A DNA stretch of 64,000 bases from Gekko japonicus (Eukaryota), in contig NW_015176019.1 in NCBI RefSeq assembly GCF_001447785.1, positions 1-64,000 of the forward strand. The letters are read 5' to 3'. Below the pieces are notes generated by a model, which did not search any database, was not told the DNA's origin, and saw only the letters and a program-made list of their open reading frames with translations. Shown here one piece after another: positions 2,426 to 50,212 of the stretch. The number at the start of each line of letters is the position of its first letter. The stretch's first letter is position 1. The translations under genes were made by a program, and so were the position numbers.

Positions 2426-3418
2426 TTGGCAGTTTATAAATGGGTCCTTGCCAACTATACCAAGGTCCTGTTCCCACCAAGGGTTACCAGAGAAGGATAA
2501 CAAGGCTGTTGTAGTTAAAATATAAGTCTTTTACTTAAGAAAATAAATCCCATACAAACAATACTGATGCACTCACACATTCAATCAAGTTCCCTAGAAA
2601 TACAGTATTAAAATAAGCACAGTTGCATTAGCAGGTGAGGGTGATGATGGGCAATACTTATCTGTCTTGCAAAGTAGTTGTTCCAATGAAGAATGGATGG
2701 GAAGAAATAGAAACTAAAGTGATCCACACTACCAGAATTTAGCCCGACTGTGTGGGGGTCTCTTGGCTGCAGATACTTTAGAAACATCAAAAAGTTCTGA
2801 CTTAACAATACTATAAAGTATAGATAGAAGTAATTATCCACAGAGCTACAGCAGCACACTCAAAATAAGTATGAAATATTCTGTAATTTTTTGACTTGCT
2901 GGGCAGGTGTGTGCACACATTCTGAACCAGGAAACATTCACAGAATGTCACACACAGTCAATTATTCTTTGTTTGGAGGCTCTTAATAGAAAGCGAAAAT
3001 GTTAACATTCCAGTTGGCAGGAGTTATAGTATGCATAGTTGCAAAAAATACGTTGGAGTCATGTACTAGTATATGGCTTAAAGTCCAGAAACCAAAAAAG
3101 AAATTAATGAACCTATCATTTTAAAAATAGCTTGCATTTGCAGGTGTAAGACTTCTTGCCATCCTATTTAACAATGGACCAATATGAACATAACTGTCTA
3201 TAGTAACACAAGATAACAAGAGCTACCAAGCTCTCCTGCTCCCCATGCCTATTCAGCAGAAAATCCAAAGAACAGGAGCAGCAGGCTCAACTACTAAAAT
3301 TAGTAAACACTAATTGTGACTTTGATTAAATGTTCACCTTTTGGTAATTACCTTTTGGTAATGGTCTGGTGTGAATACAGTTAGTTCTTCAATTCTTTCT
3401 GCTTTTTAGGATCAATAT

Positions 3419-3906
3419 GAATTACTTTCGGGGACACAACACCGCCTGGTGATTCCAGGCCCCCGGGAGGCAAAGCTTGCTGGGACCAGGGCCAGATCCT
3501 TCTCAGTGGCGGCCCCCACCTGGTGGAACGAGCTCCTAGACGGAGCTCTTCTGCCAGGCTTTTATATAGGAGCCGCCACCTCTGCCACCTCTATTATTAC
3601 CATCATTGGAACAATGGGGTTGGGAGTGGTCCCCGGAAGAACTGCCATAATTCTGCATGGCACTGATGCTGCTGGCCTGGCTTGGACCATCGACAGGACA
3701 ATTTCACCCTAATGAAATGATCGATACCATTTTCAGAGACCATCTTGTTGTATGGAGCACTTTATTTGTCTTTGTTGTTACTTAATAGCTTTTAATGTTT
3801 TATATTGTTTTTATGTATGGGCTTGTGCCCCCGTTTAAGCCGCCCTGAGCCCGTTCGCGGGGATGGCGGGGGAAAAATGCAATAAATAAATAAAATAAAA
3901 ATAAAT
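3419..3906 (+). mobile_element. L2 LINE 3' fragment
   Basis: Peptide TRARSFSVAAPTWWNEL matches the L2 ORF2 C-terminus. The 3' end is AAGCCGCCCTGAGCC...GGCGGG followed by an (AATA)n tail. Confidence 0.75.
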
Positions 3907-26514: not shown

Positions 26515-26749
26515 AAAAGGTAAAGGTAAAGGTTCCCTTGCTCGAAAGCCAGTCGAATCCGACTCTAGGGTTGCGGTGCTCATCTCCGTTTCAAAGCCAA
26601 ATAGCCAGCGCTGTCCAAAGACGTTTCCGTGGTCATGTGGCCGGCATGACTAAACACCAAGGCACACGGAACTCTGTTACCTTCCCACCAAAGTGGTACC
26701 TATTTATCTACTTGCAATTTCTTGCTTTCGAACTGCTAGGTTGGCAGTA
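26515..26749 (-). mobile_element. 5'-truncated Sauria (Squam1) SINE
   Basis: Minus strand reads CTGCCAACCTAGCAGTTCGAAAGC..GCAAGTAGATAAATAGGTACC, with an (ACCTTT)n tail. TSD TATAGTATA at 26506 and 26750. Confidence 0.9.
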
Positions 26750-48500: not shown

Positions 48501-48793
48501 TGATAAGACATGCAATCTTTCCAGTAGGCCTTTTGATACTGTATAGGATGCCACAATTTGATGCTATGCAGATGCCACTTAATACTGTTCCTCTCCAATA
48601 ATGCCTAGCTGCTTCCTTCTCCTAGCACTGTACTCGAAGCCTGTTACCAGTCCTATGATCCACCGCACATATGCAATACACTATAAAACTATGTAAGGTA
48701 AACAAATAGCCATGTTGGTCTCTAAGGTGCTACTGGACTCAAATCTAACCAAAATTAGGATGCTCAAATATCCACCAGGTCAGATCATGAGAT

Positions 48794-49369
48794 GGGAGCG
48801 GTGGCACAGGGGATTTATCCTCTGGTTATAAAGTAACATCTGAGCTGAACAGAACGGCTGTCAGTTCTAGCCCCGTGCTGGTGTGAGCTACCAGCCTTGT
48901 CCCCAGCTCGCCGTCCACCCAGCGGTTCGAAAGCTTCAGCAAGTAGATAAAATGGGTACCACTCCTTAGAGAGGGTGGGCACACTAAACCCCCCGGCGGG
49001 GGAGGTGTTAGCCGGCGAACGGAATGTCCAGCTCGTAAGATCAGAAGCCTAGAAAGATTTCTTCGGCATCAAGATGCCTGTAATGGGCTGTTCCGGCCAG
49101 GCGGTGGCAGTGCGGCGTTGTGACTCGAAACAGTCCTGGAGAAAGCTGACGTCATCAAGCCAAGCCGAGGGAAAAATGCCGCCTGGAACATGTCTAGTCT
49201 ACAGCTGAAACAAAATCCCCGTCAGCTGCAAACGTGTGCAATTTAAAAGATTTATATGTGTTGTCCTCCCTTACCCCTATGAATCATTGTTAGTCCCTTG
49301 TGAAATGTGTAACTGTAAATCGCTCAGAGCCAGCAGCTCTGCAGGATTGAGCGATTAATAAATTGAAAG

Positions 49370-49399
<30 letters not shown>
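48794..49399 (+). mobile_element. Composite SINE-like retroposon: Sauria-like head, unassigned structured middle, L2-like tail with (ATT)n
   Basis: CCCAGCGGTTCGAAAGC..GCAAGTAGATAAAATGGGTACCAC matches the Sauria segment at 26694-26740. Tail TGTAAATCGCTCAGAGCC...GAGCGATTAATAAA then (ATT)10. Confidence 0.7.
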
Positions 49400-49401
<2 letters not shown>

Positions 49402-49470
49402 CCAGTCACAAGCTGATTTTTTTGATAATAGATTCAGCTGTTTGTCAGCCTGTTTGTGGCTGTTCACACT

Positions 49471-49752
49471 GGCTGATTTCCACTAGAGCTGCCTCGATGT
49501 TGCGCCACCGTTTGCCACGATACTATTGGTCAATTTCACACCCGAAGCCGCGGGGCTGTATTTGACCCGTGGCTTCGCCCGATTTCCTCCGCAGTTTCGT
49601 GATCCTCAAAAAACAGGATCACAAAACTGCGGGGGGAATCGGGCGAAGCCACGAGTCAAAATGCAGCCCCGCAGCTTCGGGTGTAAATTTGACCAATAGT
49701 ATCAGGGCAAACAGCAGCGCAACATCGAGGCAGCTCTAGTGCGAAATCAGCC
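49471..49752. mobile_element. Fully palindromic MITE (Harbinger-like termini)
   Basis: ~137-bp arms from GGCTGATTTC.CACTAGAGCTGCCTCGATGTTGCGC to GCGCAACATCGAGGCAGCTCTAGTGCGAAATCAGCC around a short A-rich loop. Flanks ACT/TCT. Confidence 0.9.
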
Positions 49753-50212
49753 TCTGTCACTGTATTTTTTTACTAATAGTGCAATATACTGAATCAGCTT
49801 CTCTTGCAGCCATTGCTGCCATTTTCCTTGCCATGCCACTGGTGCATTTTGATGACTTTTTAAAAAAATCAGCAGTTGCTTTTGCAACAGTTCTAATGAT
49901 CTGTTGCTAAAATCTCAGAATTTCCAGCTTTTATTTTTTAAGAAAGTCTGTAATCCTCAAGGAAACTGGCTAGAGACTTGTTTTTAAATGAGGCTAGGAA
50001 TTCAGAGGTTGTAGTCATACAGCACATTAGAATGATAGTGCACATTTTCACAACAGTTATAATGATTATTTTTTAAGTCCACTGGTGGCGCTGCCAAAGG
50101 GAGATGCAGGGGAAATGGTGTTCAGCTGCTTTGGATGTAGCCATAGACAATTAAATCAGTCATAAATAAATGCTGTAGGTTTTTTTTAATATACCATTAG
50201 ATGTTAATCTAA

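What the first reader, a model, noticed from the sequence alone, without database searches (positions are those of the whole stretch)
48794..49399. Possibly undescribed composite SINE: Sauria-like head with an L2-like rather than BovB-type tail
Seen: the first ~170 bp follow the Sauria SINE head and share GTTCGAAAGC..GCAAGTAGATAAA..GGTACCAC with the copy at 26515. A CpG-rich ~270-bp middle follows, unlike that copy. The end is an AATCGCTC...GAGCGATT stem, AATAAA and (ATT)10, similar in layout to the L2 end at 3836-3906. Sauria SINEs are known to use a BovB-derived tail. Inference: a tail swap that placed this head under a different LINE partner. CpG retention suggests a young element.
Basis: partly seen in the sequence, partly recalled or inferred. 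Interest (0 to 1): 0.7.

Follow-up and report, generated by a model that had tools for sequence, protein, structure and literature searches.

The report
Long L2-tailed Sauria-related lizard SINE
This is one copy of a repeated jumping element in a lizard genome that shares its front end with the known Sauria SINE but ends in the tail of a different LINE family (L2) and lacks Sauria's insertion scars, so it is likely copied by L2 enzymes; we did not find this family in the papers we could search, but tail exchange between such elements is a known process.

Summary
Real and repeated: 48794-49399 is a full-length copy of a ~575-nt SINE family (40 of 40 scored hits 91-100% identical, sharp 5' end, 875 or more copies, many 5'-truncated). 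Its first ~185 nt are homologous to the resident Sauria SINE; the rest is not. Its last 50 nt match the 3' stem-loop of a resident L2 (39 of 50 identical). Target-site duplications of 8 nt or more occur in 2 of 83 copies against 11 of 19 Sauria copies, so another enzyme, likely L2, inserts it. It is not a recent swap from resident Sauria: the head is deeply diverged, a second, very diverse L2-tailed lineage (3,076 or more copies) shares it, and the direction of exchange is unresolved. The shared core is predicted to fold as a double pseudoknot, and 5' truncations cluster at one point in it in all three lineages. Repbase, Dfam and SINEBase could not be searched; AnolisSINE2 (L2-mobilised) may already have this layout. 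The scan noted similar elements and a pseudoknot before, elsewhere in this genome. Verdict: likely a new family of a known kind.

The parts
48794..49399 (+). Full-length SINE copy (~575 nt plus simple-repeat tail), no target-site duplication
   Evidence: (22 of 30 copies start at the same base, 28 within 10 nt)
48794..48876 (+). tRNA-like head; weakly similar to the Sauria head, clearly similar to the sister lineage's head
   Evidence: ARAGORN and Rfam find no tRNA; folds at z = -2.8
48802..48812 (+). A-box-like motif (one deviation from the recalled pol III consensus)
   Evidence: sequence; consensus recalled
48864..48872 (+). B-box-like motif GTTCTAGCC (one deviation; some subfamilies have the canonical GTTCGA form)
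   Evidence: sequence, copies; consensus recalled
48877..48960 (+). Sauria-related core; predicted double pseudoknot (48877-82 with 48890-95; 48885-89 with 48905-09; 48911-14 with 48922-25; 48917-21 with 48953-57) plus a small variable hairpin
   Evidence: 5' truncation cluster just before 48911
48961..49313 (+). Body of unknown origin: CpG-rich to ~49230, no TTTT run in the family consensus, no long ORF, no match to Sauria, L2 3' UTR or (beyond marginal) sister bodies
49314..49363 (+). L2-derived 3' stem-loop (likely recognised by the L2 reverse transcriptase)
   Evidence: 39 of 50 nt identical to the 3' end of a resident L2 family, score 61 vs 20.6 +/- 3.5; fold
49370..49399 (+). (ATT)10 tail; other copies have ATT, GAT or CAT repeats
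26515..26748 (-). Comparison element: 5'-truncated Sauria SINE copy with ACCTTT tail and a 9-nt target-site duplication
3410..3906 (+). Comparison element: 3' end of an L2 (ORF2 C-terminus, 3' UTR, stem-loop); not the closest L2 to the SINE's tail

Best explanation
The element is one full-length copy of a ~575-nt non-coding SINE family that carries a Sauria-related head and core, an unrelated CpG-rich body and an L2-type 3' stem-loop, and it is likely transcribed by RNA polymerase III and likely copied by the reverse transcriptase of a resident L2 LINE. Shown: family structure, homologies, 5'-truncated copies with intact 3' ends, near absence of long target-site duplications. Inferred: transcription from the A/B boxes; binding of the 3' stem-loop by L2 ORF2 protein; target-primed reverse transcription from the simple-repeat tail. 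The shared core is predicted to fold as two stacked pseudoknots; the cluster of 5' ends there most likely marks the reverse transcriptase stalling at the 3' edge of the first knot. Sauria (Bov-B tail) and the two L2-tailed lineages descend from one head-plus-core ancestor and differ by at least one old exchange of everything downstream; which tail came first is not resolved.
For: Repeat family with fixed ends; 875 exact core-pattern matches, reversed control 0. 18 of 30 tail-found loci are 5'-truncated (two duplicate pairs among them) and all 30 belong to the family. 47 of 50 core-found copies carry the same tail; one ends in an N gap, two are interrupted. Head homology: 82 to Sauria, 137 to the sister lineage, sister to Sauria 144, shuffles ~21 +/- 3. 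Tail: resident L2 family, 22 of 25 loci with an L2-type protein match upstream, score 61 vs 20.6 +/- 3.5; the stem is kept by a two-sided change; probes came from L2 loci, one with RVT_1 at E 3e-25. TSD of 8 nt or more: 0 of 43 and 2 of 40 (the two samples share a few copies) against 11 of 19 Sauria copies (control 0.2). Published: Sauria TSDs start with T and tails are (ACCTTT)n (PMC13295347 results); L2-type Squam3 has very few TSDs (PMC7983390). No TTTT in the consensus. Core pairing: 93.9% of cells paired, 9 of 23 pairs with two-sided changes. 5' ends 0-5 nt before the second knot: Sauria 7 of 70, sister 9 of 70, focal 3 of 50, against 4, 3 and 1 in the next 44 nt (p = 8e-5, 8e-7, 0.006).
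Against: The LINE match is only ~50 nt and 78% identical; the sister tail scores about as well against the same L2 (59), and those L2 copies are 74-89% identical to the query, apart from one near-duplicate, so the exact partner of the young subfamily is not identified. L2-clade assignment of the proteins rests on recalled motifs, not a tree. The B box of this subfamily deviates from consensus. The pseudoknot was drawn by eye from the same sequences; the number of pairs with two-sided changes did not beat the shuffles (86 of 500 reached it), few independent events underlie it, and helix 2 has no two-sided change in our alignment. The MFE fold of the core region is not better than shuffles (z = 0.04, no pseudoknots allowed). 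Truncation points were estimated by alignment and can be off by 1-3 nt; truncations inside the search pattern were invisible. Short TSDs (6 nt or more) are above control in the sister lineage (11 of 47 vs 3.8).
Confidence: 0.85

Rival explanations
1. Recent tail swap: a resident Bov-B-type Sauria SINE picked up a new body and an L2 tail.
For: Head and core are homologous to Sauria; Sauria is far more abundant (44,941 exact core matches); tail exchange is documented (PMC5786205, parts 1-3 of 5 read).
Against: Branch lengths 0.33 plus 0.65 changes per site between this family and resident Sauria; a second L2-tailed lineage is separate from both; three clades with 98-100% support, unrooted. An old swap in this direction stays possible.
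Confidence: 0.1
2. Bipartite non-autonomous LINE: the 5' and 3' ends of one L2 whose 5' UTR starts with this head.
For: The CpG-rich body resembles a LINE 5' UTR (impression); bipartite LINE derivatives exist (PMC5786205).
Against: None of 50 focal and none of 70 sister core-bearing copies was seen to run on into a shared LINE body; copies without the tail share no downstream sequence (0.7-1.5 kb examined, probes covered RT and C-terminus only). PMC5786205 reports such forms only for RTE, Ingi, Vingi and R2. No similarity to the L2 3' UTR upstream of the last ~60 nt.
Confidence: 0.05
3. Same mechanism, but the layout is already catalogued: this is a lineage-specific relative of AnolisSINE2 or an entry in Repbase or Dfam (this bears on novelty, not on how it works).
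For: AnolisSINE2 is described as mobilised by L2 (PMC4476161 passage; PMC3747384 table). Recalled, from no call: AnolisSINE2 has a Sauria-like core, and the RepeatMasker/Dfam class list has 'tRNA-Sauria-L2'.
Against: No held paper has that class name in its main text; the named squamate families Squam1-3 are 190-350 nt (PMC10702118) against ~575 here.
Confidence: 0.5
4. The core is an RNA processing element (self-cleaving, or a block to 5'-3' exonucleases), and the truncation cluster marks a real RNA 5' end rather than reverse-transcriptase stalling.
For: The same few-nucleotide site is used under two different LINE machineries; five of seven Sauria cases end 3 nt before the second knot; the invariant single-stranded positions are many.
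Against: No Rfam ribozyme match at E up to 10 or 5; the site is also the 3' edge of the first knot, where stalling is expected; most copies are full-length.
Confidence: 0.2
5. Chance juxtaposition of unrelated repeats at one locus.
For: None; the window holds no second copy.
Against: 40 of 40 scored genome hits cover nearly the whole element.
Confidence: 0

Closest known systems
Sauria SINE / Squam1 (PMC13295347: abstract, results section, supplement passages)
   Same: Homologous tRNA-like head and ~90-nt core; same predicted double pseudoknot; same 5' truncation cluster.
   Different: No Bov-B-related 3' part, no (ACCTTT)n tail, almost no long TSDs, ~575 vs ~340 nt, L2-type stem-loop, head about 1 change per site apart.
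AnolisSINE2 / Anolis SINE 2 (passages in PMC4476161 and PMC3747384; the original paper, Piskurek 2009, was not held)
   Same: Squamate pol III-type SINE paired with an L2 LINE; recalled to carry a Sauria-like core.
   Different: Sequence could not be compared; body and extent of relationship unknown.
Squam3 (PMC7983390: parts 1-2 of 4 read)
   Same: tRNA head, central domain, L2-like 3' end, few TSDs.
   Different: 218-271 nt, derived from Ther1/MIR with a CORE fragment; the core profile built here hit nothing outside the three Sauria-core lineages in 1.0 Mb of held DNA.
SINE superfamilies with a conserved central domain and exchanged tails (CORE, V, Deu, Ceph, Meta; PMC4824008 abstract and passages, PMC5786205 parts 1-3)
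   Same: A shared central domain survives under different LINE partners.
   Different: The domain here is the Sauria core; no link to a named domain was shown; the long, fast-changing body is unusual.
Resident L2 LINE family (loci L384, L393-L417)
   Same: 3' stem-loop, 39 of 50 nt identical, same AATCGC/GCGATT stem base.
   Different: Autonomous, T-rich 3' UTR with no further similarity, (TAAA)n-type tail, older copies.

Membership tests
SINE | Short, interspersed, many copies with common ends | tested here: met
SINE | Non-autonomous, no coding frame | tested here: met
   longest ATG frame in the consensus 41 codons
SINE | Signs of reverse transcription (5' truncation, intact 3' end, simple-repeat tail) | tested here: met
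SINE | Head from a pol III RNA with A and B boxes | tested here: inconclusive
   both boxes present with one deviation each, no TTTT; no tRNA call
SINE | Transcription by RNA polymerase III | not testable with these tools
   RNA reads cannot be told from read-through
Sauria SINE / Squam1 | Sauria head and core | tested here: met
   score 82 vs 21.7 +/- 3.1; core motif also seen in a lacertid sequence in the PMC13295347 supplement
Sauria SINE / Squam1 | 3' part shared with Bov-B and (ACCTTT)n tail | tested here: not met
Sauria SINE / Squam1 | TSDs with the Tn-TA signature | tested here: not met
   0 of 43 and 2 of 40 vs 11 of 19
L2-mobilised SINE | 3' end shared with a resident L2, stem-loop kept | tested here: met
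L2-mobilised SINE | No or short TSDs | tested here: met
L2-mobilised SINE | Mobilisation by L2 protein in an assay | not testable with these tools
   needs a cell assay
AnolisSINE2 | Sequence similarity along head, body and tail | not testable with these tools
   no consensus available in held papers
Squam3 | Length 218-271 nt with MIR-type CORE fragment | tested here: not met
   ~575 nt; PMC7983390 table
Squam2 | Length within 190-350 nt | tested here: not met
CORE-SINE | Central CORE domain | tested here: inconclusive
   no cross-hit of the core profile, but no MIR-type CORE motif was present in the held DNA to compare
Bipartite non-autonomous LINE | 5' part matches the 5' end of an autonomous LINE | tested here: inconclusive
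   0 of 120 core-bearing copies seen to continue into a LINE body; rare full-length LINEs could be missed

The most novel reading that the evidence does not exclude
The Sauria core is a previously unrecognised SINE central domain that works as a double-pseudoknot RNA device: it sets a defined 5' end (by cleavage or by blocking an exonuclease) under both Bov-B and L2 machineries, and it anchors an undescribed radiation of long L2-mobilised SINEs in which dozens to hundreds of source lineages keep head, core and tail while a 250-450-nt CpG-rich body drifts freely.
Probability: 0.25. Interest if true: 0.75.

Novelty: new member of a known kind. Interest (0 to 1): 0.42.

Why it matters
It gives a natural comparison inside one genome: the same SINE head and core under two LINE partners, with different insertion scars. 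The function of SINE central domains is an open question (PMC4824008 abstract); a domain with a predicted fold, compensatory changes across three lineages and a truncation cluster makes that question testable with a ~100-nt RNA. The families (about 4,000 copies or more) would also be missed or mislabelled as Sauria fragments in repeat annotation and may serve as phylogenetic markers. The general process, tail exchange, is known, which limits the surprise.

Tried and rejected
Rfam and ARAGORN: no tRNA, ribozyme or other family in the element or in four related loci. The window's L2 at 3836-3906 as partner: not significant. Tail DNA search for the partner returned only SINE copies (30 of 30); a stem pattern returned only SINE-type loci; an ORF2-to-stem pattern (7 matches) was fetched but not analysed; the L138-type L2 family matched less well (43 vs 20.3 +/- 3.2) than the family found. 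Coding role of the body: not supported. Body homology to sister bodies: marginal (mean 28 vs 25). A long-range helix closing the body was noticed by eye but my motif count was not clean; untested. Expression: no RNA holder listed; raw RNA reads of three runs lie on both strands about equally with mixed 5' flanks, which cannot be told from read-through. Empty insertion site: no joint seen in four DNA runs, but contigs break at flanking repeats, so no verdict. Rooting of the tree: no outgroup. CORE homology: inconclusive. One locus (L002 flank) was first mislabelled as focal and relabelled Sauria before alignment; five loci failed the core pattern and were left out of A1. Literature: nine searches found no description of this family or of a pseudoknot in the Sauria core; most were judged from listings only. 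Not held: Piskurek 2009 and two reviews; SINEBase supplements unavailable; seven of ten supplements of PMC10702118 unreadable. These may hold Squam2 or AnolisSINE2 consensus sequences that bear on novelty.

Full report
Observation. The described parts are all in the sequence. The element runs from 48794 to a (ATT)10 tail ending at 49399. The middle (48966-49230) has CpG observed/expected 0.79 against 0.27 for the window. The Sauria-type copy at 26515-26748 is on the minus strand and 5'-truncated. The host is a squamate, judged from its SINE content.

It is a repeat family. A search of G000 gave 4,936 candidates; all 40 scored cover nearly the whole element at 91-100% identity. Of 30 loci fetched, 22 start at the same base and 28 within 10 nt; tails are ATT, GAT or CAT repeats. 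A tail-only search gave 30 of 30 family members, 18 of them 5'-truncated, with two duplicate pairs. A degenerate core pattern has 875 exact matches, reversed control 0, a lower bound. Of 50 copies found by the core, 47 end in the same tail, one ends in an N gap and two are interrupted. The family is of mixed age: nearest-neighbour identity 91%, all pairs 81% (medians); this copy is 0.8% from the consensus of its 30 best hits at non-CpG sites, a set biased towards it.

The head and core are related to Sauria. The family of the 26515 copy has a 338-nt consensus, an ACCTTT tail and TSDs that mostly begin with TA, as PMC13295347 describes for Sauria SINEs (results section); its core motif is also in a lacertid sequence in that paper's supplement. 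The first ~185 nt of our element align with it at score 82 (shuffles 21.7 +/- 3.1); the rest does not (24 vs 21.2).

The tail is L2-derived. A pattern asking for the SINE's stem behind a T-rich 3' UTR found L2 copies with the same AATCGC/GCGATT stem base. Of 25 loci of that family, 22 have an L2-type protein match upstream; its 3' end matches the SINE's last 50 nt at 39 positions (score 61 vs 20.6 +/- 3.5, max 43 of 1000), with the stem kept by a C-G to U-A change; nothing upstream of the last ~60 nt matches, and the Sauria tail does not match. The probes came from L2 loci, one with a Pfam RVT_1 domain; the clade label L2 rests on recalled motifs. Against a precise partner: the sister lineage's tail scores 59 on the same L2, and these L2 copies are 74-89% identical to the query apart from one near-duplicate.

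Insertion scars differ from Sauria's. TSDs of 8 nt or more: 0 of 43 focal copies and 11 of 19 Sauria copies (mismatched-pair controls 0.4 and 0.2); in a second sample, which shares a few copies with the first, 2 of 40 focal and 0 of 47 sister copies (controls 0.1, 0.5). Few or short TSDs are reported for L2-type elements (PMC7983390; PMC4476161 passage). This is independent evidence for a partner other than Bov-B.

A sister lineage. The stem pattern (2,260 matches, control 0) gave 15 focal and 15 other loci among the first 30. The others are 560-700-nt elements with a head closer to Sauria (144), canonical-looking A and B boxes, a purine- and CpG-rich variable body and an L2-type end. Their core pattern has 3,076 matches. 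49 complete copies fall into 47 clusters at 85% identity and 42 at 80%, yet keep CpG at 0.78, which suggests many source lineages (inference). A tree of head plus core from 49 copies (14 focal, 27 sister, 8 Sauria, subsampled) gives three clades at 98-100% support; focal and Sauria are 0.33 + 0.65 changes per site apart. Without a root the direction of exchange is open; a recent swap from resident Sauria is unlikely.

The core. On a MAFFT alignment of 45 copies I drew two H-type pseudoknots and a small hairpin. 93.9% of cells pair (shuffles 88.8 +/- 0.4), 9 of 23 pairs show two-sided changes, slid controls pair 25-43%. Limits: the structure was drawn from these sequences, the changes are few independent events, the count of such pairs was reached by 86 of 500 shuffles, and helix 2 hardly varies. 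The lacertid sequence seen shows, by eye, a two-sided change in helix 2. Among copies found by a pattern that starts at the second knot, 5' ends within 0-5 nt upstream number 7 of 70 (Sauria), 9 of 70 (sister) and 3 of 50 (focal), against 4, 3 and 1 in the next 44 nt (binomial p 8e-5, 8e-7, 0.006). The site is the 3' edge of the first knot, so stalling of reverse transcriptase is the simplest reading; RNA processing is not excluded. Rfam has no match.

Mechanism. Most likely pol III transcribes the element from its internal boxes (inferred; no TTTT in the consensus), L2 ORF2 protein binds the 3' stem-loop and copies the RNA into a nick by target-primed reverse transcription (inferred from established LINE/SINE biology and from the tail and TSD results), and some events stop early, often at the core. 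The body has no long frame and no identified source. No core-bearing copy of 120 was seen to continue into a LINE body, which argues against a bipartite LINE.

Comparison and novelty. Tail exchange under a conserved central domain is known (PMC5786205 parts 1-3 of 5; PMC4824008 abstract and passages). Named squamate families are 190-350 nt (PMC10702118 background, part 1 of 3 of results, Squam2 section). AnolisSINE2 is an L2-paired lizard SINE (passages); I recall, from no call, that it has a Sauria-like core and that a 'tRNA-Sauria-L2' class exists in RepeatMasker/Dfam. If so the layout is catalogued and only this family is new. Nine literature searches found no description of it; Repbase, Dfam and SINEBase were out of reach. 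A sequence look-up in the scan's notes found nothing; word and place look-ups found two notes on long Sauria-headed, L2-tailed elements and one on a double pseudoknot in this genome, read after my own results; they are not independent support. Verdict: real, likely an uncatalogued family of a known kind; interest 0.42.

Noticed in passing
L111-L140, L233-L262, L303-L342: Sister lineage of 560-700-nt L2-tailed SINEs with the same head and core; nearly every copy sampled is its own subfamily at 85% identity while CpG stays high.
   Followed up: partly
window 26515-26748 (-); L173-L202, L263-L302: Resident Sauria SINE is very abundant (44,941 exact core matches) and 10% of sampled copies begin 2-5 nt before the second predicted pseudoknot, as the window copy does.
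   Followed up: yes
window 49466-49757: High-copy fold-back element (83-nt and 46-nt inverted arms), probably a MITE, 65 nt downstream of the SINE; gives only sub-threshold microRNA hits in Rfam.
   Followed up: no
window 48713-48749: 37-nt piece of another high-copy repeat just upstream; reads show opposite-strand joints there, as for a palindromic element.
   Followed up: no
window ~48985-49000 (element positions 191-205): A second possible cluster of 5' truncations in tail-found copies (starts at 191, 196, 201, 202, 205).
   Followed up: no
window 48980-48985 and the family's matching motif near 49245: Possible long-range helix closing the variable body (GCACAC/GTGTGC here, GGCACCC/GGGTGCC in the sister lineage).
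   Followed up: partly
window 49146-49153: A perfect TGACGTCA palindrome in the body; GC-box- and CRE-like words are also frequent in sister bodies (names recalled).
   Followed up: no
runs X16 vs X1, X2 on window 48794-49370: A second organism, with flanks about 95% identical, holds the family, with much lower contig depth over the body; depth is not a copy number, but it hints at a lineage-specific expansion of this subfamily.
   Followed up: no
L017, L014, L125/L126: Some copies have a tandem duplication of the first 10-20 nt of the head at the 5' junction.
   Followed up: no
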